DNA from: Conidiobolus incongruus B7586
Taxonomy: Eukaryota
Reading direction: 5' to 3'
NCBI GenBank assembly: GCA_000697335.1
Contig: JNEM01006243.1
Location: 1 to 48,602 of the forward strand
DNA length: 48,602 nucleotides
Under the pieces are notes generated by a model, which was given only the letters and a program-made list of their open reading frames with translations, did not search any database and was not told the DNA's origin. The position numbers and the translations under genes are program-made. This document shows, piece by piece, positions 172 to 26,045 of this stretch; position 1 is the stretch's first letter; each line of letters starts with the position of its first letter.

Positions 172-1314
172 ATAAGATATAATCCAAAGGAAAACTTGAA
201 TTAATAATTATATAACAAATTTGGAATATTAATCATTTTATAGATATTTTGAATATATTAGTCGATATGGATAATTTAATTAATTTATATTATAAATGAT
301 ATATTTACATAGTTTAATATTAATTAATATAGTTAAAAATTTTAGAAAAAAATAATTATTAATAATAAAATAGAAGAATATATTGATATAATAAAAGTAA
401 AAAAAAGGAGCATATTTATGGGTGAAATTAATGATATCTATAATTGAAATAACTTTACTAATATAAATTAATTGATTATTTAAAGTCTGATATTAAATAT
501 AAAGTTATATAAGAAGTTTTATAATAATTTTTCAATAAAATAAAAATAATATAAAAACAATTTATTATTTATTTAATTAAAACTCATTTGACAATTTAGT
601 AGCCTTATACAATATAACTCTCTTTTGAGGTTTATTTAATATAAACCCTATTTTTATTAAATTAGATATAATTCATTATAAAATAATAATTTCATTCTTT
701 AATTTTTAAAACATCAATTAAAATATTTATAGCTAAAAGTAAATAATATTAATTTTTTACTGTTTAAAAAAATAAAAAATAGTTGAATTATTTATACTTA
801 ATATTATATATTACTTTATCTATATTAATTTATACTATATTTAAATTTTAAATTCTTTGAGTTATCTTTGATATTAAAATTAAAATTTTTTGAAACTTTT
901 AAAAATTGTATTTATAAATTATTTGTTGAATATTTTGAAAGAATATTGTTTTTGACTACCAGAGCCTAAGGTTAACTCATATATATTTAGACTTAAGAGC
1001 TTATTTAATAAAGGAAGAGAATACCTTTGGTGTATGGTAGTTATTTATATAAGCATTATATAAGCAAAATATAAAATAATTAAGGATATTTACATATAAA
1101 CTTGGATTAAAAAAACTTTCAAATGTCTTTAGTATTATATGGGGACAAATCAAAATATCAATGCTACTAGAATATATTTTTTATTATCTGATATTTAGTT
1201 CATTCAGTCTTACAAGGTTGGTGTAGGGGCTTACTCCAACGGTGTCTCTGGACTCCATGCTGGATTTGGATGAGGGCGATCAAATTGATTAACTTGGTCA
1301 AGTTTAACTATAAG
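172..1314 (+). mobile_element. Degenerate Fanzor2/TnpB (IS607/IS200-605-derived) element relic, copy 1
   Basis: + strand reads N-K-G-R-E-Y-L-W-C-M-V-V-I (from 1007), K-H-Y-I-S-K-I-*-N-N-*-G-Y-L-H (1051-1095), K-L-G, and K-T-F-K-C-L-*-Y-Y-M-G-T-N-Q-N-I-N-A-T-R (from 1112). Reverting mostly G>A/C>T changes gives NKxREYPWC..EHYTSKTCGNCGYLH.KLG..KTFKCPQC....DRDINAAR, the TnpB/Fanzor Zn-ribbon + RuvC-III signature. Weak N-terminal remnant IRYNPK...FG at 172-225. The left boundary is uncertain and may lie outside the window. Confidence 0.8.
1200..1314 (+). ncRNA. Candidate omegaRNA scaffold / transposon right end of Fanzor relic 1
   Basis: GC-richer non-coding segment directly after the RuvC-III remnant, homologous to 21525-21640. 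Hairpins GTTGG..GTA../..TAC..CCAAC (1217-1240) and AACTTG-GT-CAAGTT (1291-1304). Confidence 0.5.
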
Positions 1315-4166
1315 TAAATATAATTTCAAAATTATTTATATTCTTAATTAATTAATAATATAACAATTTAATCTTGACTTTATTATATTAATCACTCATA
1401 TAAAATACTTCCATTTAAAATTAATAATTTATTATGATATAAATTATAGCTAGTATTTAATAAATTATGGTATTTATTATGACTTGGAACATTTATGAAT
1501 TTAATGGGTACTATTGGCATTAATTCTTCAGAAATCACATGATTATATCTATCAACTGCATAATTCCGCAATATTAAAATTTGCAAAATGATTTTTAGTT
1601 GAATTAATGCTCTTGTGATTTTTGAAATGCAAAAGGTGCAACTTAAACCGTTCAAATTAATCAATTCAAGTAAAATTTTAAAACATCGATTATATCTAAA
1701 TATTCAAGTATCAATAGATATTTTTAAATACTTTGTTAGATAAAACCTTGAATATAGTTTAAAATTTTAAATAAATATGCAAAATAATGAATTCTTGAGG
1801 TTCAATGGATTTTTGTAATTACGTTAGTTGTTAATTTTTAAATTGGTCTATTCACAAGTAAAATAAGTTGTTTGGACTAAATTCTCAATAGAGGTTAAAC
1901 AACTAGATAAATTATAATTGAAATGGAACGATTTCTTTTTGAATTGAAAAATCTCAAACATTAAAATGTATTAGCAAATCCACAATGCTTCGGTTATATG
2001 AAAGATGCTTCGGAAAATATAAAGTATATACCCATTAATACATTTCAATTCATCCACAAGTCTTGGATATTTAGTCAAATATGTTAATTTTCATTTAAAT
2101 TTATTTATACCGAACAAAAATATTAAAAAAGCTATACCTGTCAAAAGTTAAATATGCAACCAGTAAAATGTTAAATGACTAGTAAATGATATTAAAAAGA
2201 GTACCAAATGGTTGATGATCTTTATCAGTTTATAATAATGAATAAATATTTAATTCAAAGAAAATTATCTCTCAAAAATTCCATCATATTGATCAATCGT
2301 TTAATTATTCATTAATGTGTAAAAATAAAAGAGATATATCAGTAAGTTATTATCAATTTCAAATGATAAAAAACAATAATAAAATGTATTAAAAATAGAA
2401 AATGGATTCTTATAAAAGGTTATAGTTAAATATAGGAGATAATTTTAATTAACTAAATAATAGATTCAGAGAAGTATTTAAATTAAAAACAGGGTTGTTG
2501 AATTAGTTAAATTGAGTGGTATTTTATTTTATCTCTTTTGGTTTATTACGTAAATTTAATGTAAATCTTTTCAACTGAAATTTCCAATAGATGGTTAGTA
2601 AAAGTGATAATTCATGTATAATGAATGATTTTTCCAGAAGTTATGTGTTTTGTCTTCTTAATTGAAAAATAATTGTTCATCTAATTCTCTATTATTAAAC
2701 TGATATTCAAATATTGAATAAATTTAGAGTAGAAATTGATTTTAGCTAGCGAATTTACCGATAAAATCATTAAAGTCAATTTTCAATTGAAAATTCCTTT
2801 TCGTAATTATAATATTATGCTTATTAAATTATTTAGTTAAATTCAAAAGCAATTGGTACTGAAACATCCTTTCAAATATTTAATAACATTATGTAACAGA
2901 AATCAATATAATATATGTTTTGTTATCCATCGCCTCTATCTGATTATGTTTGAATTTTCAATAATAACCAGTACCAACCAACAGTTACTTACCAATATTG
3001 GTAAGTTTTGGCCACCAACTAACCAGAATTCGCATATGTCAGGTAAATATATTAAATTGCAATTTTATTTCTAAAAATCCATGCTAAATTATATAACAGT
3101 TGATTGATATAATTTTACCCAATCATTATTTCCAAGTTGATATAATATTAACATAGTATTGATAATATAGAATTTTATTATTTTCAATGATATTAAGTAT
3201 AATAATTGTTATATTAGAGTAAAATTTATCTATATGATAATAATTCTAAATAATTATATTAAAATTACTAAAATTAGCAAAATTTTATCAATAGATCAGA
3301 GATTGTAATATAGTTATAGTCCAATGAATACAAGAGAAATATTAGCTTCTAAATTTTTAGTCAATTAATCACCTCAATAAATAAAACAAAGGTGTGTGGT
3401 AAATGATACTAATATTAATATAGTACTATTAATCAAAAAGTGTATATATGATAAAATCTAATTCGAAAAAGGGAGAGCTTAAAAAAAATTCAGTTCAAAA
3501 GGAGAGATTCATATTGTTCAAATCTAAATTATTCAGTATCAAAGGATTAAAGCAGCTAAACGGATGAAAATTATTTAGTCTCAGACTAGACCCTGAAAAT
3601 CTTAGACCATTTTAGTCCAACATCTTGACTAATAAGCTATACAATTCCTATAGGAAATCGAATTCAGGAAGTACATTAAATAACATTTAACTATTTTTAA
3701 TATATGTAGCATCTCCTATATTCCAATGTTGTACCCTTTATTCTTGTAAATATATGTTTCATAAATTTATTTATCAATTGTATTCCTTTTAAGTTAGTCC
3801 AATTATTCTAATTATATCGAGTTTCGATTTAATAATATATTTTAATATATTGAATCCAATCATATCGAATGTATTCATTCCCAAATATTTTACTTCTCCA
3901 CACTTAGATTGCCTAATTGGGAGACTATGATTCTAAATCACTGAATTTATGAGTGCATTTGTCACAACATTTTGAATTTTATATTTGATGCCCATTGTTA
4001 TGTTTATCAACTTGACAGGAGTAGGTAAGGACTAAACACATCATGAATTATGAGTTCATCTTAATTGATGGTATGGGTGTAAAATTAAATTGGTTTAAAT
4101 ACTACCTCTCCGTCATGATAGTTGAATCAAATTAGTTTGATTTGTATAGTCTAAACTTGAATTAAA

Positions 4167-6966: not shown

Positions 6967-7038
6967 TCCGATATGGTCCAGTGGTTAGGATTTCTCGCTT
7001 TCACCGAGACGGCCAGGGTTCGATTCCCTGTATCGGAG
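6967..7038 (+). tRNA. tRNA-Glu(TTC)
   Basis: Acceptor stem TCCGATA/TATCGGA, anticodon arm TCTCG-CT-TTC-AC-CGAGA, T arm CAGGG-TTCGATT-CCCTG. 72 nt, with a T-run downstream. Confidence 0.96.
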
Positions 7039-10020: not shown

Positions 10021-11223
10021 ACATTTTTACTAGTATAGACAGTGCTAAACAATATTTTATTTTTAGTGTTATAGGTAATTGGATTATATAGTCGAAATTC
10101 AAAAATGATTATAATATTCGATATATTAGTATTATATTATTAAACTTTTTTATCAACTATATAATTTTTTAATATATATTTAAACTTTGAACAGTTACTA
10201 ATATTTTTATTATTCAATTTATAACTTATTAAAGTAAGAAAATGTATAATAATCATCATATTCCTTTTTTATTTGGTATCAAAATAAAATCCAAATATTT
10301 ATTAAAATACATAAAATACTTAATTATCAAGAGTAATGTGAAAGTTTTATATCTAACTCAATCGTTAATTACAATGGACTGTATAAATTGTAATATAATC
10401 ATTGTCCTATAATCATATTTCTAATATATCTTTGATTTATATAGTAATTAAAATATCAAGTGATAAATATATCTATTTCAATTCATACAATTATTTCAAG
10501 ATAATGCTATTGAAAGTTTTGCACCTATAAATGAGTGATAAAAATTGAAATAAAAGAGGTAATAGAATGCTGAAGTTAAACGACATTGTCAATGTTAATA
10601 TTTGATATATATACTTTTAATTCCGTTATATTAAATTCAAGATATTTGGATGGATTTGGATAGTTGAATCATTAAATTCCCAAATTATAAATTTTTTCAG
10701 ATATAAACTGTCAATAAACAAAAAATTAATATATTACATAATATTCATCACATTTTCAATATAATTTGTGAATCAGGTAATTACCTCAAGTCAACTGTCA
10801 CACATTTCTCTAATTCACTCAATTAACTTAGCTATTGATTATCTTTTCTTTATCATATTTTGTGATTTGACTCACCTGTTCCATGATAATTTATAAAATA
10901 TTTCTCTTCTTCATTACAGTATATAAGCAGTCTTTATCTTATCTCAATACAAGACATCTTTGATAATAAGAATAAACAAGTTGAAAATTATCGTTATCTA
11001 TCCTTATTAATCAAATTTCGTCAATAGCATTAGTAGAGATTCAAATCAGTCCTAATTGTATTTCACATAGCCAATTTTTCAAATATATTATTCAAGACAT
11101 TACATCAAACAAGCATAAATTATAAGATATTATAATAACTTTAGGGATTTATATTTATAAATATTAATAAAATAATAAAAGAATGGGAAATGAACAAATA
11201 ATGAAAATAAATAAAATAAACCA

Positions 11224-11295
11224 AGATCTGCCTGAGAACCGAACTCAGATCGCAGGATTCAAAGTCCTGAGTGCTAACCATTACACCAGCGGAGC
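11224..11295 (-). tRNA. tRNA-Gln(TTG), atypical or possible pseudo-tRNA
   Basis: Minus strand: GCTCCGC-TG-GTGTAATGGTTAGCAC-T-CAGGA-CT-TTG-AA-TCCTG-CGAT-CTGAG-TTCGGTT-CTCAG-GCAGATC-T. D, anticodon and T stems pair. The acceptor stem has two mismatches and the T loop has G at position 58. Confidence 0.85.
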
Positions 11296-12385
11296 TCTTA
11301 TCAAAAGTTATTTTACACATCTATTAATTGAAATTAGTCCCCTTTGATTCTGATTATTTCAATAATTAATTGTATAAATCATACAATATATAATATTGAT
11401 ACAATCTTCACAGTCATAATCCATCACTTGTATATATATCAAATAAATATATATTAAAATCTTAATTTTTTACTAATAAATTTAATATCACTTTTTTACT
11501 AGTATTCATTATATTTTATATTATTTACTTCTATAATTTCAATATTTTTCTCAATTTAATTGATTACTTATAATCATGGTCATAATTTTATACCTTAATT
11601 TTACTAAGACTCAACATATCAAAAATCTCAAATACAATCATATTCTTTACTTAGCTTTTTTTTCAAAAAATGTCGTTAATATCGGCTATTTATCTGATAA
11701 AATTCTCAAATTAACTAGTCAAATTAATTTATGACCTATGATAATTATTATTGGTATCATTTAATGATATTTAAAATCACTATATACTTAGAATTATGTA
11801 CTGATATCTAGATTTATAATTCTAATTTTAAAGAATATATTTACATATAAATAGTTTGCTATTAATTCCAAAACAATATTGACATATAATCATTACCTTT
11901 CCACTTCATATTATAAATGTTTTCAACTTTTTTATATGATAATTTGTTTCTCATAATATCAGAATTATGATCTTAATTCTTTAACTGATAACTATATTTA
12001 ACTTTATTTGATTTCTTAAACTCACGAGTATAAAATATAAAATATTAAAAATATTTTGACTATTATTTGTATATGAATCATTATTATTAAAATTAATATA
12101 ATCTTTAATATTCGATGACACATGTTAAAATTCTATAAATTTGATTCATTCAACTTTTAATTGTTTGCCCCTTGAAATCAACGTCACAATAATTCTAAAT
12201 TAAGCTGTAAGTTGATTTTAACGAAAAATGATTCATCAAAAATTAAAATAATTATTTAACTTTATTTAAAATGATATCATCAATTCAATATATTTATCCA
12301 TTCATTCTAATATATTCCTTAATTTTCAACCCTATTAGAAAAATTGTTAAACTATAATTATTGTACAACTTTCAATCGATATTAT

Positions 12386-14823: not shown

Positions 14824-15309
14824 ATTTATATATTATTTATGCTATAAGTATCTTAATCAATGAAAATTAAGCAAATATTGGATTTGATGTAAGTAGTATT
14901 TATGTTGAATTGAAGAAATGTATTTATTGAATGAATGTTTGGATAGATTTTAGATAGAAATTTGCTACCCAATGAGATTGTGATTGGTTAATTTTTGGGA
15001 GTGATTAGAAGGAGAATTAAAATTTAAATGATAAAATATTGCAACAAATAAAAATGATATATGTGTCAATTTGATGATTTACAAAAAAACCTTCAAAAAT
15101 ATTAATGGTTATATCGAATTGATGCTATGGGGTTAATATTAACTATTATATTATTTAAAACGAGGTATATTGATGAATTTAATATTTTATTAATTAATTT
15201 TTTTGTGAAATTCATAAGTTAATACTGTAATAAAGTATTTATTAATAATTATATAAATTATATGTTATAAAAAACTATAAAATCCTAAACAAATCTATCA
15301 ATTAATATG

Positions 15310-18300
15310 TTACTGATTCCAGCCATGATCATTCCTACGTTTGACAGGAGACGTTGGAAAAGTGCGTCCCTTGCCAAAACTCCTATCAAAGCTCAAATCT
15401 TCTTGCATTGTAATATCACCATTCAACGTACCAGGATCTTTGAACACTGTATTGAAAGGATTCTTATTATGGTAATTCTGGTTTGGATTCTGCATAGTGT
15501 TATTCTTTCTAGGCCCAATCTTAGGTAATGGACGTCCCGTAGTTACCGGTTTAAACACTTCTGGAAGATGTTTCAAAGGTTGATTTTCATCTACAATACC
15601 TGATTTGTCAACCTCTTCCTCCAGCAGTTTATCATGTAATGTATCCCATTGTACTTGGTTGAATTTGTCAAATTCTTCAATAACTGGAGAAACAAAATTT
15701 TCCAAATCTTTGCTCAGTTGCATATCGAGAGTGTGCTCGTTCAACGTCTCTTCCGATCCTGATGATGGTGGTGGGGTTTTTGACTGTAATTTCTCCAAAT
15801 TGTCCACGATATTCTTCTGCATGTTGAGATAGTCCTCCATCCTAGATTGGATCAGACGGTTCTGCTCCTAGATCGTTTTGGCTTTTTGCGCTTCTTTCAT
15901 AGCTTGGCGTTTGCTACGTTTAATCAGTGTCAATTCGTGCCACTCGGCCCATTTGCGAAATGGAATGCTTTCTGGTCCTTGATTATGCAAGTTCTTGTCC
16001 CCGTGACCGCCTTCTCCGTGACCTGTATCGGGACCGTCAATCTTTCTGGTAGCTCCCCAGTTAAAATCGTCGAATCGCCAGAATGCGTACGCTGGTAAGA
16101 CTAAATTCCAGATAGGGAGTGCTAGAATGAACACTCCCATCCACATGACATATGACGCTTTCTTGGTAGTTGTCAGGATGAGAACAGCTTGGAGTAAATA
16201 GGCGCCCGCCATCATTTCCAATGGCAGCAATACATCCTGACCCATAAAAGCAGCAATAATGAGATAAATGGTAAAGCACATACTTGCAGATAGCACTACA
16301 GTACCAATTAATTCCAACAGAATGACAAATTGCATTGAACAACAGAAAATACCACACAATTCAGGAACAAGTACTAATTCCAGCAGATTGTGAATGGTGG
16401 AACTGATCCATCGACGTCTTTGGGATAGCAATACGCTAAATTCGTCTGGAACTACGATTTTACATATAGCTCTAGGCACGTAAATCATTTTGCGATTGGG
16501 AAAAGTTCGCATCATTAGAGTAGTTAGGTAGCGGTCTTCACCCAACAGTAACAAATTCTTCTTATGTAATGTACTTACGTCGTTTGATGAATAATTGGTA
16601 ACAATATCTGGATTTGCTAAAACTGGGACATTGTAACCATCTTTGTTCTGAGCTTTAACGCGATACATACAGGAGGAACCCGAAAGACGTGCGACACCGC
16701 CGAAGATCGATTCGAAAGCTTTACCCAAATGATGACTGATATAGTATTGGTACACTTGTATTCGAGTCACCCAGGTATCTCGCTTGTTAGTTATTTGCGT
16801 CTCGCCGCACAAGCCCATAACTAATGGATCGCCCCCCATAGCAGCTACCATGATACCCAAAGCATCTGGCAATACTCTCCTATCGGCATCCACCATTAAT
16901 TCCAATTCATATCTGTCAGGTGCGACTCCCACTAGTTGACGCACCTTTTGGAAAATATCTTAATGCAGGGGGCTCATTGGTTCGTTAAAGCAAATAACTG
17001 CCAACCAATGCATCAAAATGAATTTAAGTCTCGTTTACCTTGATTACCAGCCTTGAGCTGCATTCTCTCATAAGGTAATCCATATTTGATAATTTTATAT
17101 ATAATACTCTGTGATCCAAAATATTATCTCTATGTGTACTTGAGCCAAATTGTGTTTTCAAGATCATCTCCAATTGCAATGTATGACTTTCGCTTTGGAG
17201 CTGGTACCCTCAGGTTAAAAGATTCCATAAGGTTGTGAAGGATTTGAGGTGTACTCTTTTCATTAGCCGATCCCGTAATATTGCCATCAACAATGACGAA
17301 TAATAGCTTGTGCATATCGTCATAATTGGACAATACTAAACTATTCAAGATATCCTTAACCGATTCCAACCATTCGAAATAACATGTAACTAATAACAAA
17401 ACGTGGCTCAACATATTTTTATCCCTCTTTTTACTATTAATCTTTCCTAACTTCCAACTCAAGAACCAATCGAAAGCCACAGGTGCCAAAAATTTTATGT
17501 GAGTCATAGTCAACAATATCATAGTGCTGCAAATCATAGCTATATTAGCAATAAAGCAACCGGTGGTAGTTCTATCCAATTTACCGACAACCAACTGCTT
17601 GTCAAAGCACAACACCAATTTTATGAGTGCGTAATTCCTTAAAACGTCCTTGGTAGCATCTTTCCCTATAAAACTTTGGAAGATCGGGTCCCACCCTTTG
17701 AAGTAGTGTTCTTCGTCCTTATCGCTGAAATATTCAGTGAGACTATACTTCTTGTCATTATACACGAAATACTTTGTATTTTGATCCCATGGAGACGTGA
17801 TGTTCTGCCAACTGTATACGACATAATCGTTCATTGCCAAATTCTTGAGCGTGGTCCAGCACTGTGTACTGATGTGACTACAGTTTTGTATCGTTGCCTA
17901 TCTTTTCCAGTTTTTTGCACGGATTTTTCTTGTTGTCCTCAGGCCAGAATTCGCACGTTGAGCCGCCCGAATCTGGGGGGAAGAAGTGTGAAATGCCGTG
18001 GCCGTATAATGTTTGGATAATTTCGTCTAAATCTTCGTCCTGAAGGGGTAGGATTGGATGATGGCCGCCCAATGGGAAGTACAGTCCCACATCGTATAAC
18101 TGACCTCGTATTATCATCAGTTTTTGGCCGCTGGATCGTGATCCGTGATCTCTGGCAACCCAGTCTACGAAGATTGGTATCTTTTTCTTACAAATTAAGC
18201 TAGCGAACCCAAATGTCAAGAAGCCCAGCATTGCCGAAATCAGGGCAATAATCACGCACAATGCCACCTTTTCACGCCAGGCTTGCTGAATTTTGGGATC

Positions 18301-20365
18301 TGTTAAATTGCCGAATTTTTTAAGGGCCCAGCTGAAGCAGCAGGCGTCACTACTTGCGAAAACAATTCCCATCGGGATTGAGGATTCAGTCCGAAGTGAT
18401 ACCATTTGTGCTTGTCGTCGATAGGTTTGCTCAAGTTGCTGAATTGAGCGGGTTGGTTCCCTTGGATAGCACCATTGCCTGAAAATGGGTCAATTGAGCT
18501 ATTGATGGATCCCTTTCAAGCTTTTCTTGCTCTCAGAGTATTCTGTCTATTTAAAGTAGAAGTGTACGACGGTACTTTAAGATCGGACAAATCCTCCGTC
18601 TTTTCAATTAACGGCTCCTCCAAACTGATATCGGCAAAATCATCCATAGTATTTTGTTTCTCCCAATTATCTGGCAAGGGACAAGGATAGGGATCGGTAC
18701 TACCCAAATCGTTGGGCATCGAAGGTTGTTTCTTGGAGCAAAGTTCTGTAAGATGATAAGCTGGTGTGGGCATTTGCAAACTATTCAAATCTGGGAATTG
18801 TTGTCCACGACTCAATTGTTTTTAATGACTTCTTTTGTATGCTCTATCTCCTATCTGCAAGATTTGAATCACTTTGGCGTGATCATCTTGCTTCACTAAA
18901 CTCAGTGCAGTTTGCGCTTGTTTGATTGTGGCATTTGGATATGCTCTAGCTTGTAATAGTAAATCAACGACATCTACATGGCCTGAAAATGATCCTATCA
19001 TCAGAGATGTCCAATCGTGAATGTCGGCAATATTGATACCTGCTCGAAAATCCAATAGTAATTTTACTGTTTTACTATGCCCTTGGAATGAAGCTATCAA
19101 GAGAACAGTCTTTCAGGTGTGATCCTTAAAATCCAGATAAGTTTGCATGAATGTACCGGTTGTAGTTTGAGGACTTGGAGACTGCGTCTGATAGTTAATC
19201 AATAGCCTCCGACATATTTCAGTATGACCTCCAGATGCAGCAGCCATTAATTGAGTTTGCAACAGTTTTGTAGCAACAAAAGGATCTACCTTATAGTACA
19301 ACATACGATCTACCTGGTCCAAAGAACCTCTCAAATAAGACTTATACAACGGAGTCTCGTCCGCCGCATCCTGATTATTCACATCAATCCCGCTCAAACT
19401 TAGAACCCAATTCAATATAGAAATTGGGAGAGCAGGATCCATACAACATCTCTGCAGCAGTGTAAAGCCTTGACTGTCGCAATACACATTCAAATCCATA
19501 TCCTTCCTGCAATAAACCCTCTGCAAGCCGTTGAGATCGTGCGCCTCTAAATGGTAAAACAATTGACTCACCAAATCTTTCGCATTCGTTTCCACGGGCG
19601 ATTCGGGATCATCGATTATATCCTGTAATGGATTATCTTCATCGTCATTGTAGTATACCGGACTTTTCGTATATTCCGGAGGGTCGAAAGCATCCATGAC
19701 TTTAGCCAAACTTTGGTCCAATATATCCACAGATTTCGTTTTGAAAATATCCTCAGGTGGTGGTCTTAGACTCTTGCTCTTTTTCGATAGAGATGCCGAT
19801 CTTGGATGTAAGTCAGATTCACTTAATAGTCCTTTGGTGTACACCATTTCTGGATGGTCTAAATCTATTGAATAAAAAATTTAAATTAAATGATTATATA
19901 ATTACCTTGCTTGGGTCCATCATCCAACATGCTATCATCCTCAAAGTCCATAGCTGCCCTTATCTGGCTGGTACTCTCCAAGCTATACTTGGAAGTGGAC
20001 GGAATCGGCTCCAAAAGACTGATCTAAGGCCTTATCAACTCACTATTCTCTATCCCTGCGTCGTCATATCTCGGTGGTTGACCACCGAACGTGGTGGGAA
20101 ACTTGCTCGTACTCTGCGTCGGCCTCTCCAGCTAGCTGGGCACCTCCATAATCGGCTCCAATCCCCCACCAGCTGGCCTGAACATATTATCGTTAGGATC
20201 CTGCCCATTCGTCTTGGTTTCTTTCGGATCCGGCGTTGAGTGAGTATTGGGACCTGCATTACCGGTACAATCCTCCAAAAAGATCTCATCAGTCAAGCCT
20301 CGCATTGATTCTTCCTCCTGAATATAAAAAACATCCGAATTGTCAGGACTTGAAATACTAATCAA
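15310..20365 (-). pseudogene. Disrupted chitin synthase (division 2, class IV/Chs3-like, cytochrome-b5-like domain) with N-terminal ankyrin repeats
   Basis: Colinear fragments: ankyrin repeats (19847-18822), QQAWREKVALC plus b5-like IRGQLYDV (18405-17878), VTCYFE..DGNITGS..STP (17840-17130), decayed GNxGKRD (~17050), MVDAD, LGEDRYLT and SQRRRW (16944-15868), then a C-terminal tail (15840-15310). Fragments are separated by in-frame stops and several frameshifts. The 5' boundary is uncertain. Confidence 0.9.
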
Positions 20366-21029
20366 AATTAGTGAAATATCTTAATGGCTATTAACATATC
20401 AATGAATATTGTGTTATAATCAATTATTAACGACCGGTTTTATAATATATAACTTCTTCGATATCAATCCGAGTTATTAATATTGACAAAATAAGATATC
20501 TTTAAAATTGATTAATTTAATATTAATCAAAATAGCAAAAACTATAAATCACAACCATTAAATAATCCTCAATAAAATATAGTTAGTTCAAATAACTGCA
20601 ATCAACTATATGGTTATCTTTTATAATAAATTTAGATTTAGGTATTTGGATTACATTAGTAACTAGATTAGAATGATGATTATAGTTATCATTTTATATT
20701 GTTAGAGATAAGTCACAGTATAAAATAATCTAAGAGTGACTGTTATTTACATTTACTATTAATTTGAAAAAATTAATGAATAATATTTAAAAATCTACAT
20801 ATTTAATAATAATAATAATAATTTTAAAAATTTTATTTGCTTCAAATTATCCAAAAAAATATATTAATTTTGTAAAATTTTGTTATATTTAATTAGAAGA
20901 AACTTTAATCTTGTTTAAAATATAAATATAATCAATTCCCCATAACTTATTTAATTAGTGATATTAGTCTTAATATAATATTTTAATTAATGCTCACAAA
21001 TTTTCCATTACTTTTGAGTACATCTATCA

Positions 21030-21640
21030 ATATTAAATCAAGGTTTATATAAATTATCATTTGAAATATAAATATTTGGATATTATTTTACAAATATAAT
21101 TTTATTTCAATATATATAGTATTTAACATATTATGATCATTTTTAATATATTTTTCAAAATATCATTTTTATTTTTGCCTACAAAATAACATAATAAATT
21201 GAAATATTATTAATCAATCTTAGATATTAGGATAAATTTAGGAAAGTTAAAATAATATAAACTCTAGGTAATATCAAGTTTATTCAGTTTATGATATTAA
21301 ATGGCCTTTTTATTGATTTAAGAAAGCATATCAAATAAACCAAAAGATTACATTAAGTTTAAGGTAACAATTTATAACAGATTCTATATAAATAAAATAT
21401 ACAATAATTATATATATATAATTTAAATCAAGAAAAACTTTCAAATGTCCTTAATGTCATGTAATGATAAACAAAATTATCAATATTTCTAGAATCATAT
21501 CCTTTTGTTATATAATAGCCAATTAAATCAGGTTTCCAAGAGGATTATCAGAGCTTACCCACTTGGGGTCTTTGGACTCTATGCAGGATTTGGACAAGGA
21601 AAATCATAATTGATCAACTTTGGACAAGTTTGATTATAAG
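21030..21640 (+). mobile_element. Degenerate Fanzor2/TnpB element relic, copy 2
   Basis: W-P-F-Y-*-F-K (from 21302; cf. WSHYRFK), N-K-P-K-D-Y..K-V-T-I-Y-N-R-F-Y-I-N-K-I-Y-N-N-Y (21334-21411; cf. KVxICDE.YTSKTCGNC) and K-T-F-K-C-P-*-C-H-V-M-I-N-K-I-I-N-I-S-R (from 21434). Nucleotide homology with 1112-1314. Weak L-N-Q-G (cf. RuvC-I LDPG) at 21033-21044. Confidence 0.78.
21525..21640 (+). ncRNA. Candidate omegaRNA scaffold / right end of Fanzor relic 2
   Basis: Shares GCTTAC, GTCTyTGGACTCyATGCwGGATTTGGA, AATTGATyAACTT, CAAGTTT and TATAAG blocks with 1200-1314. Confidence 0.5.
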
Positions 21641-22599
21641 AATATAAATCCCAGTCAATCTTAATCCAATTATAAATAAACAAATTAATTATCAATGCTT
21701 TCATCGTCGCACGCACCTCAAAAAGTATTGAATTAGCAATTGTAAAAGAAATAATCAGACGCCGGGTAGAATGTTAGAATTCACTAAATCGGAACCATTA
21801 TTGGTTCAAATTGACAAAGATTAAGTCAAGCTAACTTTAAATTCGCTATTGCAGATATTACTAATAGTTAGATGAGTCAGAAGGAAGTGGATGTTGCTAC
21901 CAATTTGGGATATATCAATGGGATTGTTCAGGTTGCTAAGTATTTAATATACTTCAAATTGTGTGAATTGAATCACTTATAATTTATTAGTTTTAGACCA
22001 TATTGAAAATTTGACAAAGACTGATTGAAATAGCATCAAAAAATTATCCATGTTAATATTACATAAAAAGATCTCAATTAATCCCATTTTTTAGAGCTTT
22101 TAGCATCAGTTTATTTTCCTTGATTTGTTTGATTCAAAACACTTTTTCACACCTCATATTGGATAATGACAATATCATTTTCATTAGACTAGGTACTGCT
22201 ACTAGCACCTGCCAAGGATGCAGCTTTTTTTGCTTATCCAAAACCATTCTTGATATAATAAGTGATTTATTTGCTATGGAACATCCCAGTCTCTACACTT
22301 TATCACCTAGTCCCAGTATGATGGATATTGAGATGCAAACCAATATTAGAGAGATAGATAATGACTGAATATTTTATCTAAATCCACAGAGAGTTAACTT
22401 TTTATTAGGCTCCAGTATCATCTAAGCTCAAATGTAAAAATGATTCCAAGATCTTAAGAGTGGTAATAAATTGTTATATCCCAATGTTCCTGAGATCACT
22501 GAAGTTTAAACAATCATGATCTTCTTTCCAGCAAATTCCAATTATAGATTTATCAATTGAGATATTTAATTATTATAAATTTAAAATCAGAGGAAATTT

Positions 22600-25120
22600 T
22601 AGTTTTAGATTTTTATATTATTACCTTATATTTAAAGTAATGAGAAATTTTTTAATTTCTGATTTTTCAAACATATTATTAGTTTAAAATAAATAAATAT
22701 ATACAAAGTTAATAAGAAATTATATATTTTAAATATATATATATATAATAATTTTTTTGGTTAAAAAATTAACCTTTTAAAATTGGTTGTTTAATTTAAT
22801 TATACTTAAACTAAATAATAATTATCAAAAGTTTTTTATTTTAGTATTAGTATAATTTAACTATAAGCCTTTTAAAATTATTTATAATTTACAAGCAACT
22901 TTTAATAATAAAGTATTATTTAAATTAACAATTTATTACTAAGTAAATTATTTTAAGGTTAAAAGAAAAACTATTTAAAACTTGTTAAAATTTAAAAAAT
23001 TAACTTTAACTGTTATTTTTTTAATTATTAATAAAATGAAAAAATATATTAAAAAGTATTTTTTTATTTTAGTTAAAAAATTATTTAAGTATTTTAATAT
23101 TAGTTTTATAAGTATTTTATATATAATAAAGTTTAAACTCAAATTAATAAATAAAAATATAATATAAATACTTTATAATTTAATTAAAGCTTAAAAAAAA
23201 GTTAAATATTATTATTAAATAAAACTTATTAAAATATTATTAAAAGCTTAAACTTTTATAATAAATAATTATAATTAATAAATCTTAAATTTATATATAT
23301 ATTTTTTTATTAAAATATAAATTAAAATACTAAATTAAGTTAAATTAACCCCTTTTATAAATTTTTTTAAATAAGTATTTTATTAATAAATAAATGTTAA
23401 TTATTATAATAAATTATAATAGTATATACTACTTTTATTTAATTTTTAAAGGAAAATTAATTAATAATAAACTTTATATTGTTTTTTAAATAAAAGTATT
23501 TTTAATTAGTATTTTTATTATAATTTAAGAAAACTTATTATTTTATATCATTATTACAAAATATATAAATCTAAAACTATAAAAAACTTTCTAATTAAAA
23601 ATAATTAGAAAAAACTACCATATCTAATAACCTCTTTAAATTATAGCTTATATAATTATAATTGTTTTAAATAATTAAAAAACTAACTTATAAGAAAAAA
23701 AATTTTATAAAAAAATTTAATTAGTTTGTAAAATATTAAATTTCAATTTTTAATAAAAAAAATTATTTTTTAAGTATTTAATCTGTGTTAAAAGTATAAC
23801 AAAAAGTTATTAATAATAAAAGAAACTATTAAATTTATATTATATATTAATTTTAATCACAAAAAATTCCTATTATTAAAAATATAAAGTAATAATATTA
23901 TATTATTTTGAATCTCACTTAACAAATTTAACTATTTATTTAATTAATTTTACAATTCAAATAAAAATTATTTATAAAAAAATATTTAGTTAGGTAAAAA
24001 AATAAATATTAAAAAATTTTCTATATTAGTGTATATAACTATATATATTTAATAAAACATATAATATTAATGTTATTTGAATACTTATGACCTTTTTATT
24101 TATTATTATTATTAATACTACTCAATCATTATAGTTGAAATAAATTAAAATACTTAAAAATATATTTTATAAATTTAAAATAATTTTTAGTGATTGAAAT
24201 TTTACAAAAATTATATATTGATTTATTTACTAGATTTTTATTTTCTCCATATATTATTATATCAAATAAAGTTTTTAATCAAAGCAATATCAATTAGTTT
24301 ATATATTATTACTTTGAAAATTATATTAAATAAAACTAATATAAATTTATATTTATTGATCTAAATTATTATATCAAAAATTATCTGTGTCTAGTTTGCT
24401 TATTTTTGGTATTTTATCAAAAACATAGCTATATATAATTGCTTTGACTCCCCACTCATATTCAGCTTAGAAATTCAGCTACTTATAATAATAATTATCA
24501 GTTAATTTGATTAAAATAAAATTTCAATCACTTTAATTATTATATCTAATTATTTTTTATTTTAAATTCAAGTTCAATTCATAAAATAAAAGATTTAAGT
24601 TTTTACCTTGTAATATAATTAAATATAATTGATTACATTCATTGATAAAGCTTTCATTATTTTAAAATTGGTATAATATAATTGAATAAATATTTGAACT
24701 ATATATTATTTAATTCTGAATAATAATAATATACTTTTATAATTAATAAAGCTTTATTTTATTAAATATTTCAAAATTTATATGTAAATTATTAATAAGA
24801 AATTCTTTCACTTCTATTGAGTGTATTATATAATGTATTTCAGAACAGATATGACTTTAATATTTGATTAATAAGGTTAAAGAATAAAAGAGTTTTAAAT
24901 TCAAATACATTTTGTTCTATAAATTAGTATTTATCTCAGTCTAAATATTTTTTATTATTATGATATTTCAGAATTTCATTTGATTCAATTGTGAATAATT
25001 TTGTAAGCTGAATTAATAAAATAATACTTAATATTTCATCAATTAAAACATAAAATTACTTTTATTATGTCTTTAATATATACTATTGATAAAATTTAAT
25101 ATTTCTTGTTAATCATTTTT
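22600..25120. other. Extremely AT-rich, deamination-scarred (RIP-like) region, probably a decayed repeat
   Basis: No CpG seen by eye between 21846 and 25120. In ~22800-23800 the surviving C/G sit mostly in ACT/AGT/AGCT contexts, with few CA/TG. Confidence 0.6.
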
Positions 25121-26045
25121 CGAATTATAAATAGATTATTATATTTAATAAACTGAGTATTTTTGATGTAATGCAATCAAATAAATGAATAATTGGGTTT
25201 GGAATAATTAATATTAAATTAATGAGATAAATCATTCAGTTAATTCAATATGCCAATGTTATCAATGAACCGTCCAAGTTGAGCTGTATATAATATTTTT
25301 AATATTATAACTATTCAAAATACTTACTAGTTAATTTTTTCATTAGATTGTTAAAATATATTTGAATGACGCAATAACTAAGAAAATTTTCATTAGAAAA
25401 TTCATTTATAGGTAAAATAGTATGTTAAATGAACTATTCTTTTATTTAAAATAATTGTATAATGAATTGTATATTTTTGAAGAAATTAATAATATTTTAA
25501 AATAATTTTTATAGCATAATCATAATTATATAATTCAACTTCTTCCAATTATTATTAGTTCCTAATTTTTGTGATGAGGTATTTTTATAGTTGAATTCTG
25601 AAATAATTTGAAAAATAATAATGTATACTGAAATTAAAGCAATTATCTTATTCAAAGACAAATTAAAAACATTAAAAAATTAATTAATTTATACTGGATT
25701 TTTTTTTTGAGTTTTATAACATATTTGAAATATGTTATTGTCTTAATTTAATTATAACGTGTATAAATCCGTTAATTTGATTGTAAAATAATCAATGTAA
25801 AGATTGATTTGAAAATAAATCCCATAAGGAAAATTAAATTATATTGAATAATACAATTAAATTAATGATAACAGTACAAAACCTCAGCAACCATTGCAAC
25901 TTATCACCTTTTAATTAAAAAAGAATTAGTTATTATTTTTGAAATCAACCAAAGCTTTAATTATTCAATTGTAGAAATCAGTCCAATTTTAATTAAGTTT
26001 TAGTACTATTTAGTAAATTTGAAATTAGCTTATTTTTTTAAAAAA

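What the first reader, a model, noticed from the sequence alone, without database searches (positions are those of the whole stretch)
21030..21640. Second, independently decayed Fanzor relic 20 kb away in the same orientation
Seen: WPFY*FK..NKPKDY..KVTIYNRFYINKIYNNY..KTFKCP*CHVMINKIINISR. Cys codons are turned into Tyr (TGT>TAT, TGC>TAC) and Thr into Ile (ACA>ATA). It keeps residues lost in copy 1 (CP.CH), while copy 1 keeps REY.WC and INA.R, so the two cross-validate a consensus KTFKCPQCHV..DRDINA.RNI. Inference: two copies in 48 kb imply a formerly high-copy mobile family. Their divergence, which includes transversions, suggests old insertions or distinct subfamilies.
Basis: partly seen in the sequence, partly recalled or inferred. 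Interest (0 to 1): 0.75.

Follow-up and report, generated by a model that had tools for sequence, protein, structure and literature searches.

The report
Dead repeat, possibly a Fanzor-gene tail
A 340-base stretch that occurs twice in this fungal DNA window, and whose end occurs about a dozen times in the genome, is a dead non-coding repeat that possibly descends from the tail of a Fanzor/TnpB-type nuclease gene; it is ordinary transposon debris.

Summary
The repeat is real. Window 21310-21648 matches 985-1322 on the same strand at 69.6% identity (blastn E 2e-31), far above shuffled or natural controls. Only these two copies lie in the window. Assembly contigs of the source organism hold the last ~100 bases about 10-13 times.

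The Fanzor reading is only suggestive. Copy 2 reads R-K-T-F-K-C-P-stop-C, then four residues, then N-K-I-I-N-I-S-R-I-I. This has the canonical TnpB spacing ([RK]-x-aromatic-x-C-x-x-C, four residues, D-R-D-x-N-A-A-x-N-I). It ranks 2nd of 97,062 six-frame positions in the window, and copy 1 ranks 60th in the same register. However, 16% of shuffled windows reach that score somewhere. Pfam, NCBIfam, PDB and an exhaustive phmmer search of 1.84 billion proteins find nothing. No other part of a nuclease gene, no inverted ends and no transposase are present.

Four of six stop codons sit at the same aligned codons in both copies, and both lack the D-R-D residues. If the repeat derives from a nuclease gene, it was already dead before it spread, so the copies did not decay independently. 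The host is an early-diverging fungus, a group where Fanzors are common. Low interest.

The parts
21310..21648 (+). Copy 2 of the ~338-bp dispersed repeat (the finding). It is non-coding, with 7 stops in the motif frame over 21302-21649.
   Evidence: blastn; MAFFT; nhmmer E 1.6e-91; translation
985..1322 (+). Copy 1 of the same repeat, 69.6% identical (231 of 332 ungapped columns)
   Evidence: nhmmer E 4.5e-96
21431..21502 (+). TnpB-like 24-codon block of copy 2. It reads R-K-T-F-K-C-P-stop-C, four residues, then N-K-I-I-N-I-S-R-I-I-S. This would be the second CxxC of a Zn ribbon plus a degenerate RuvC-III D-R-D-x-N-A-A-x-N-I.
   Evidence: PSSM rank 2 of 97,062; the top four of 9690 HMM-scored pieces overlap it; HMM aligns model positions 42-56
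1109..1180 (+). Homologous block of copy 1 (K-K-T-F-K-C-L-stop-Y-Y-M-G-T-N-Q-N-I-N-A-T-R-I-Y-F). The second Cys is lost and N-A is kept.
   Evidence: PSSM rank 60 of 97,062, or 25-26 with stop penalties; codon table
21524..21648 (+). 3' module of copy 2. It is the best conserved and most repeated part of the family (core 21546-21647) and has two predicted stem-loops (21550-21580 and 21586-21631). It is possibly a transposon right end or guide-RNA scaffold (inferred).
   Evidence: Depth 266-331 vs 25.3 single copy in run X1, with 7 other contigs listed per run; fold_alignment; fold z-scores not significant
1200..1322 (+). 3' module of copy 1
   Evidence: (1244-1286 in at least 3 more contigs)
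21611..21613 (+). TGA shared with copy 1 (1286-1288) in the motif frame as aligned to copy 1. It is a possible original stop codon, 46 codons after the D-R-D position (inferred).
21030..21309 (.). It is AT-rich intergenic DNA. 21194-21237 is a separate short stretch with about 6x depth.

Best explanation
This is a dead, non-coding ~338-bp dispersed repeat that possibly derives from the 3' end of a TnpB-like (Fanzor2-type) nuclease gene together with the transposon's right end, and it would have spread as an already inactive, ORF-less fragment.

Shown directly:
- There are two same-strand copies 20 kb apart at 70% identity.
- The last ~100 nt occur about 10-13 times in the organism's assembly.
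- There is no open frame, no inverted ends and no transposase nearby.
- Both copies have stops at the same aligned codons.

Inferred:
- The block K-x-F-x-C-P-x-C, four residues, N-[KQ]-[NI]-I-N-[AI]-[ST]-R-I would be the second half of the OrfB zinc ribbon followed by the RuvC-III D-R-D-x-N-A-A-x-N-I motif.
- The shared TGA 46 codons later would be the old stop.
- The conserved GC-richer tail would be the right end, where TnpB/Fanzor elements encode their guide-RNA scaffold.
- Three internal stops and the loss of all three D-R-D residues are common to both copies. Their last common ancestor was therefore probably already a pseudogene fragment, mobilised in trans like the ORF-less 'ghost' elements of Spizellomyces, and is now inert.
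For: - Repeat reality.
- Copy number of the 3' module. Depth is 266-331 against 25.3, and variants at 21607/21609 appear in 10-12 other contigs per run. All four runs are one sample and probably the source assembly.
- Canonical spacing: 98 of 111 distinct phage/viral TnpB C-termini fetched here have C-x-x-C, four residues, then D-R-D. The same spacing shows in the viral Fanzor2 passages of Bao & Jurka's protein supplement.
- With a PSSM of that 24-residue block, copy 2 ranks 2nd and copy 1 ranks 60th of 97,062 six-frame positions, in the same register. The ranks are 2 and 25-26 when stops are penalised.
- The top four of 9690 HMM-scored pieces of the window all overlap copy 2.
- When the two copies are merged in a script, preferring G/C at mismatches, the score is 5.9. 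This is reached by 1 of 2000 column shuffles. The reverse strand scores -25.9.
- The motif lies upstream of, and on the same strand as, the conserved 3' module.
- Shared stops: 4 of 6.
- Of 7 variant sites inside the second predicted stem-loop that are seen in 4 or more contigs, 5 are unpaired and 2 are G-U to A-U or U-G to C-G changes that keep the pair (my reading).
- The host is an early-diverging fungus. Saito et al. 2023 state that Fz1 and Fz2 are widespread in fungi and describe 134 ORF-less ghost loci (passages).
Against: - No database or profile search sees a protein. Pfam and NCBIfam give 0 families at E<=10. PDB gives only three chance hits at E 0.22-0.55. phmmer against 1,835,955,588 proteins gives 0 at E<=0.001. 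Two word-index searches give 0.
- The PSSM score of copy 2 (2.5) is reached somewhere in 32 of 200 shuffled windows, and an obviously spurious site at 25767 scores higher.
- The HMM aligns only 15 residues. Copy 1 alone is unremarkable with the HMM (rank 1369).
- The first CxxC, the [TS][TS] pair and the RuvC-I/II residues are absent. A full-length TnpB HMM finds nothing upstream of either copy.
- Mismatches show no codon periodicity: 23, 26 and 17 at positions 1, 2 and 3.
- The longest open run of the merged sequence (75 codons) lies in a different frame.
- The tail folds no better than shuffles, with z -0.6 and -0.8, and matches no Rfam family.
Confidence: 0.48

Rival explanations
1. It is an unclassified non-coding dispersed repeat with no nuclease ancestry. 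Candidates are the 3' end of 5'-truncated retroelements, a SINE-like or MITE-like element, or a Helitron-type 3' end with its hairpin. On this view the TnpB-like string is a coincidence in AT-rich sequence.
For: - All protein and RNA family searches are empty.
- 32 of 200 shuffled windows reach the motif score somewhere.
- There is no codon periodicity.
- The longest open run is in another frame.
- Copy number rises toward the 3' end, as in 5'-truncated elements.
- Both copies share stops, as expected if the sequence never coded in this frame.
Against: - A hit of this quality inside the 1.4% of the window occupied by the repeat has a chance of roughly 0.16 x 0.014, or about 0.002 (inference).
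- 1 of 2000 element shuffles reaches the merged score.
- The two copies complement each other at the motif: C-P-x-C in one, N-A-x-R in the other.
- There is no poly-A or simple-repeat tail, no tRNA-like head and no TIR.
- No RT or transposase was found in the window.
Confidence: 0.42
2. One reading: two full Fanzor insertions that decayed independently in place.
For: The same motif evidence as above. The copies are old and diverged.
Against: - 4 of 6 stops are shared, and D-R-D is lost in both copies.
- Homology starts at the same point in both copies, with nothing upstream.
- Host exons lie within about 1 kb upstream of copy 2, leaving no room for a roughly 2-kb gene.
Confidence: 0.05
3. It is a family of small structured RNA genes or a host regulatory module, not a mobile element.
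For: The tail is conserved and GC-richer, with two predicted stem-loops and one compensatory pair. Variation among contigs is concentrated in predicted loops.
Against: Fold z-scores are -0.6 and -0.8. There is no Rfam match. The copies sit in unrelated flanks (loose ends without consensus beyond 21640). The copies are only 70% identical.
Confidence: 0.05

Closest known systems
Fanzor2 / IS607-type TnpB elements (Bao & Jurka 2013, PMC3627910; Saito et al. 2023, PMC10432273)
   Same: The second zinc-ribbon half and the spacing to the RuvC-III motif match: [KR]-x-aromatic-x-C-x-x-C, four residues, D-R-D-x-N-A-A-x-N-I. A short tail to the stop is followed by a conserved right end. The element is multi-copy in a fungal genome.
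   Different: Only about 24 degenerate residues are recognisable and D-R-D is lost. There is no first CxxC, no RuvC-I/II, no N-terminal half, no intact copy in any database searched, no serine recombinase and no significant profile hit.
Ghost Spu-1 elements of Spizellomyces punctatus (Saito et al. 2023; passages read)
   Same: Both are ORF-less short elements that outnumber gene-bearing loci and keep the conserved right-end region, which there encodes the guide-RNA scaffold.
   Different: Ghost elements have 30-nt inverted repeats and a proven cognate Fz1. Here no inverted repeats were found, no cognate nuclease is known, no RNA data exist, and this element would keep a piece of the ORF.
Fanzor1 elements of zygomycete fungi (ROr, MCi and PBl families, Bao & Jurka 2013)
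   Same: The host group and the general C-terminal R-D-x-N-A motif are shared.
   Different: In the Fanzor1 passages seen the last Cys pair and the N-R-D-V-N-A motif are spaced differently from the relic, and those elements carry TIRs/TSDs of known superfamilies. The comparison was by eye only.
5'-truncated non-LTR retroelement tails / SINE 3' tails
   Same: The 3' end is far more abundant than the 5' part. There are no TIRs and the copies are short and non-coding.
   Different: There is no A-rich or simple-repeat tail, no RT remnant and no Pol III head. Depth is not monotonic: there is a 1x valley at 21502-21545 between two peaks.

Membership tests
Fanzor/TnpB (motif of Bao & Jurka 2013: D-X(125,275)-[TS]-[TS]-X-X-[C4 zinc finger]-X(5,50)-RD) | RuvC-I Asp 125-275 residues upstream of the zinc finger | tested here: not met
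   Homology between the copies starts about 40 codons before the motif. A full-length TnpB HMM (66 sequences, 381 positions) has no hit in or upstream of either copy; the best score anywhere is 2.5 bits. Host exons lie about 1 kb upstream of copy 2.
Fanzor/TnpB | [TS][TS]-x-x followed by the first CxxC of the C4 zinc finger | tested here: not met
   The 71-position C-terminal HMM aligns only positions 42-56. No such string appears in the codon tables.
Fanzor/TnpB | Second CxxC of the zinc finger, preceded by [RK]-x-aromatic-x | tested here: met
   Copy 2 has R-K-T-F-K-C-P-stop-C. Copy 1 has K-K-T-F-K-C-L-stop-Y. 98 of 111 fetched TnpB tails have this layout.
Fanzor/TnpB | R-D (RuvC-III Asp) 5-50 residues after the zinc finger | tested here: not met
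   At the canonical +5 to +7 positions the copies read N-K-I and N-Q-N. N at +9, A at +10 (copy 1), R at +12 and I at +14 (copy 2; Y in copy 1) fit the D-R-D-x-N-A-A-x-N-I block. This is compatible with decay but is not the motif.
Fanzor/TnpB | Significant similarity to OrfB_Zn_ribbon (PF07282) or to any TnpB/Fanzor protein | tested here: not met
   Searches are all empty. Own HMM gives 6.3 bits, P 5e-4 per piece among 9690 pieces.
Fanzor/TnpB | Conserved non-coding right end encoding a guide-RNA scaffold, transcribed with a variable 3' extension | tested here: inconclusive
   A conserved, multi-copy 3' module exists. The predicted stem-loops have 1 compensatory pair, but fold z-scores are -0.6 and -0.8. 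No RNA data could be examined.
Ghost (ORF-less) Fanzor elements | Terminal inverted repeats homologous to those of a gene-bearing locus | tested here: not met
   The TIR score is reached by 140 of 500 shuffles (copy 1) and 42 of 500 shuffles (copy 2). No gene-bearing locus is available.
Ghost (ORF-less) Fanzor elements | A cognate intact Fanzor gene elsewhere in the genome | not testable with these tools
   No whole genome is held. The protein databases gave no relative.
Non-LTR retroelement tail / SINE | A-rich or simple-repeat 3' tail; RT-bearing master; Pol III head for SINEs | tested here: inconclusive
   No tail is visible at 1322 or 21648 (flanks). No RT was found in the window and no tRNA-like head. 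Masters elsewhere in the genome could not be searched.

The most novel reading that the evidence does not exclude
The 3' module is a live guide-RNA gene family. On this reading, ORF-less ghost elements of a Fanzor2-type system in an early-diverging fungus keep a fossil of the nuclease tail, and their conserved stem-loops still supply guides to a nuclease encoded elsewhere in the genome.
Probability: 0.06. Interest if true: 0.5.

Novelty: new member of a known kind. Interest (0 to 1): 0.2.

Why it matters
It matters little beyond annotation. If the Fanzor origin holds, it adds one more decayed, ORF-less Fanzor-derived family in a fungal group where such elements are already known to be common. 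It would also illustrate that the fragment spread after the gene had died. It is useful as a caution: a short zinc-ribbon/RuvC-III-like string in AT-rich DNA is not enough to call a Fanzor, and shared stop codons can tell decay before spread from decay after spread.

Tried and rejected
- Whole-genome copy count: no genome is held. Assembly contigs of four runs of one sample were laid instead. Copy 1's own contig was not listed, and few pieces of 80% or more matched it.
- No RNA holder was listed among the runs, so expression could not be examined.
- A metagenome scan with a 21-mer of the conserved tail gave 6 loci, all with GC 39-58%. The similarity does not extend beyond about 22-45 positions, so they are chance matches.
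- Earlier-findings look-ups by place, by sequence and by relatives gave nothing.
- Rfam at gathering threshold found only two tRNAs. At E<=10 it found only noise, sn2343 at E 8.7 and Vimentin3 at E 0.44.
- Inverted-repeat and TIR/TSD searches gave only AT-rich noise.
- Sigma-70 promoter and terminator scans are no different from shuffles and are irrelevant for a eukaryote.
- A ciliate-type code (stops read as Gln) was considered because of the in-motif TAA/TAG. It was rejected because the host genes (chitin synthase, MKT1, RIC1) read normally under the standard code.
- RIP as the cause of decay was considered. The mutation pattern is only mildly transition-rich (54:47), and from my own knowledge RIP is not established in this fungal group.
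- Fanzor proteins from Bao & Jurka's supplement were compared by eye only. Their alignment file S4 could not be read.

Full report
CONTEXT

The window is AT-rich (9-43% GC per kb) nuclear DNA of an early-diverging fungus. Its open frames encode ordinary host proteins:
- a chitin synthase with N-terminal ankyrin repeats (minus strand, about 15.3-20.3 kb)
- TOM13
- MKT1
- RIC1
- Gti1/Pac2
- a C2H2 protein
- a bZIP protein

The chitin-synthase exon is 87% identical to an unnamed JGI/Logan protein. It is 57-72% identical to named proteins of Entomophthora, Syncephalis, Basidiobolus and Glomeromycota. No transposase, reverse transcriptase or recombinase domain was found in 45 of the 61 open stretches of 70 or more codons; the other 16, mostly frames overlapping annotated exons, were not submitted. 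No whole genome is held for the window.

Yes, as a DNA repeat.
- Self-blastn gives 990-1323 vs 21315-21647 at 70.5% over 342 columns, E 2.3e-31, 132 bits. The next match is an internal AT-rich similarity at 71.6 bits, and all others are 55 bits or less (28 pairs in all).
- The Smith-Waterman score is 179. 300 dinucleotide-preserving shuffles give 25.9 +/- 3.3 (max 39), and 300 natural window pieces of similar GC give max 48.
- Sliding identity places the boundaries at about 985-1322 and 21310-21648. The first 280 bases of the flagged interval (21030-21309) therefore do not belong to it.
- A profile of the two copies finds no third copy in the window (next E values 1.9 and 7.7).
- Over 345 columns there are 231 matches, 101 mismatches (54 transitions, 47 transversions) and 13 gap columns.

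FAMILY SIZE

Contigs of four runs of one sample, probably the source of this DNA and so not independent, were laid on copy 2 at 80% likeness or more.
- Single-copy depth in run X1 is 25.3.
- Bins 21568-21633 reach 266-331, about 10-13 times single copy.
- Seven other contigs per run are listed covering about 21546-21647.
- Variants at 21607 and 21609 are carried by 10-12 contigs per run.
- A smaller peak (89-125, up to 5 times) lies over 21414-21457, the zinc-ribbon-like stretch.
- One contig joins 21463 to 21610, so at least one other copy holds both parts.
- Upstream loose ends of these contigs agree with each other (0.71-0.81) and resemble copy 1. Beyond about 21640 they have no consensus (0.52-0.53), which fixes the 3' boundary.
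- Copy 1 has fewer close relatives.

The 'multi-copy mobile family' inference holds at moderate copy number.

WHAT IS IT?

(a) Searches for a protein or RNA family all failed.
- Read-through translations (X at stops) of both copies match no Pfam or NCBIfam family at E<=10.
- PDB gives only three chance hits at E 0.22-0.55.
- phmmer against 1,835,955,588 representative proteins gives no hit at E<=0.001.
- Two word-index searches among longer proteins give nothing. The second used the best-conserved tail in the motif frame.
- Rfam gives nothing beyond two tRNAs elsewhere in the window.
- A metagenome scan with a conserved 21-mer gave six chance matches.

(b) A direct test of the TnpB/Fanzor idea.
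- The published defining motif is D-X(125,275)-[TS]-[TS]-X-X-[C4 zinc finger]-X(5,50)-RD (Bao & Jurka 2013, passages).
- In passages of their protein supplement, the viral Fanzor2 tails read K-x-aromatic-x-C-x-x-C, four residues, then D-R-D-x-N-A-[AS]-x-N-I. The Fanzor1 tails seen are spaced differently (by eye).
- I fetched 121 viral-contig loci that encode D-R-D-x-N-A-A-x-N-I. 111 distinct tails resulted, and 98 have the C-x-x-C, four residues, D-R-D layout.
- A 71-position HMM of these tails was run against 9690 overlapping 60-residue six-frame pieces of the window. Its four best pieces all fall on copy 2 (6.3-5.9 bits, per-piece P about 5e-4). The next site scores 5.7.
- The HMM aligns only model positions 42-56, to S-R-K-T-F-K-C-P-X-C-H-V-M-I-N. 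Copy 1 pieces rank 1369th or lower.
- An ungapped 24-position PSSM ranks copy 2 second and copy 1 sixtieth of 97,062 positions, both in the homologous register. With stop penalties the ranks are 2 and 25-26.
- Merging the two copies in a script (G/C preferred at mismatches) raises the score to 5.9. This is reached by 1 of 2000 column shuffles. The reverse strand scores -25.9.

(c) Limits of that evidence.
- 32 of 200 block-shuffled windows reach copy 2's score somewhere, and 12 of 200 reach the merged score. A plainly spurious site at 25767 scores slightly higher.
- The motif is therefore not significant for the window as a whole. It becomes notable only because it lies inside the one dispersed repeat, which covers 1.4% of positions. 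The joint chance is roughly 0.002 (my inference).
- It is also notable that it lies upstream of, and on the same strand as, the conserved tail.
- Nothing else of a nuclease is present. There is no first CxxC or [TS][TS], and a full-length TnpB HMM gives no hit anywhere near either copy.
- Mismatches show no codon periodicity (23/26/17).
- The longest open run of the merged sequence (75 codons; 3.5% of the null) is in another frame.

(d) Independent decay is contradicted.
- Codon by codon in copy 1's frame, 4 of its 6 stops are stops at the same aligned codon in copy 2: 1061, 1097, 1130 (inside C-P-x-C) and 1286.
- At the D-R-D positions both copies have A where G would be needed (AAT/AAC, CAA/AAA, AAT/ATT).
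- The flanks of the two copies are unrelated, so this is not a segmental duplication.
- The most economical reading is that the common ancestor was already a non-coding fragment that was then copied.
- The shared TGA at 1286/21611 lies 46 codons after the D position, within the range of tail lengths in the fetched TnpBs (14-129 residues). It could be the original stop (inferred).

(e) Ends and tail.
- No terminal inverted repeats were found. The scores are reached by 140 and 42 of 500 shuffles. No target duplication is visible.
- The tail has two predicted stem-loops conserved in both copies: 25 pairs, with 1 compensatory and 4 one-sided changes.
- Within the second stem-loop, 7 variant sites are carried by 4 or more contigs. 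Five fall in predicted unpaired positions and two are wobble-to-Watson-Crick changes (my reading).
- Neither copy folds better than shuffles, with z -0.6 and -0.8. This is a hint only.

VERDICT

The element is a real, old, non-coding, moderately repeated ~338-bp sequence.

My best reading, at about even odds, is that it is the fossil of the last ~60 codons of a TnpB-like (Fanzor2-type by spacing) gene plus the element's right end. It would have been propagated after the gene had died. This is comparable to the ORF-less ghost elements that outnumber Fanzor loci in Spizellomyces: 134 ghost loci against 42 gene-bearing loci (Saito et al. 2023, passages).

The main rival, nearly as likely, is an unclassified repeat with a coincidental motif.

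Two earlier AI notes on a red alga describe gutted elements that keep only a Fanzor tail. They are precedent only and were not tested here.

Either way the finding is ordinary transposon debris in a fungal group where Fanzors are already reported as widespread. Membership in the Fanzor family cannot be claimed, because four of the defining features tested were not met.

Noticed in passing
window 15300-20400 (minus strand): A multi-exon chitin synthase gene has N-terminal ankyrin repeats (Chitin_synth_2 E 1e-147; CHS4; Ank). The same ankyrin-chitin synthase architecture appears in the Pfam lists of many Glomeromycota, Zoopagomycota and Basidiobolus hits.
   Followed up: partly
window 22660-24130: An extremely AT-rich block (8.8% GC at 23-24 kb) has loose internal direct similarity (22761-23327 vs 22992-23576, 66%) and short tandem arrays (28-nt unit at 23204-23263; 12-nt unit at 23309-23338).
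   Followed up: partly
window 1015-1072 (inside copy 1): A 55-nt piece matches three other contigs at 80% or more. The flanks of those contigs agree with each other (0.86 upstream) but not with copy 1. This is possibly a different short repeat or a mosaic junction.
   Followed up: no
window 21194-21237: A short AT-rich stretch upstream of copy 2 has about 6x single-copy depth in the assembly contigs. One contig joins it directly to 21592, skipping 355 nt.
   Followed up: no
window 6967-7038 (+) and 11223-11296 (-): tRNA-Glu(TTC) and tRNA-Gln(TTG) genes are present.
   Followed up: yes
window 25767-25838 (+): This is the highest-scoring PSSM match to the TnpB tail block in the window. It has no second Cys pair and no repeat partner, and is judged spurious. 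It shows how easily AT-rich DNA mimics the motif.
   Followed up: partly
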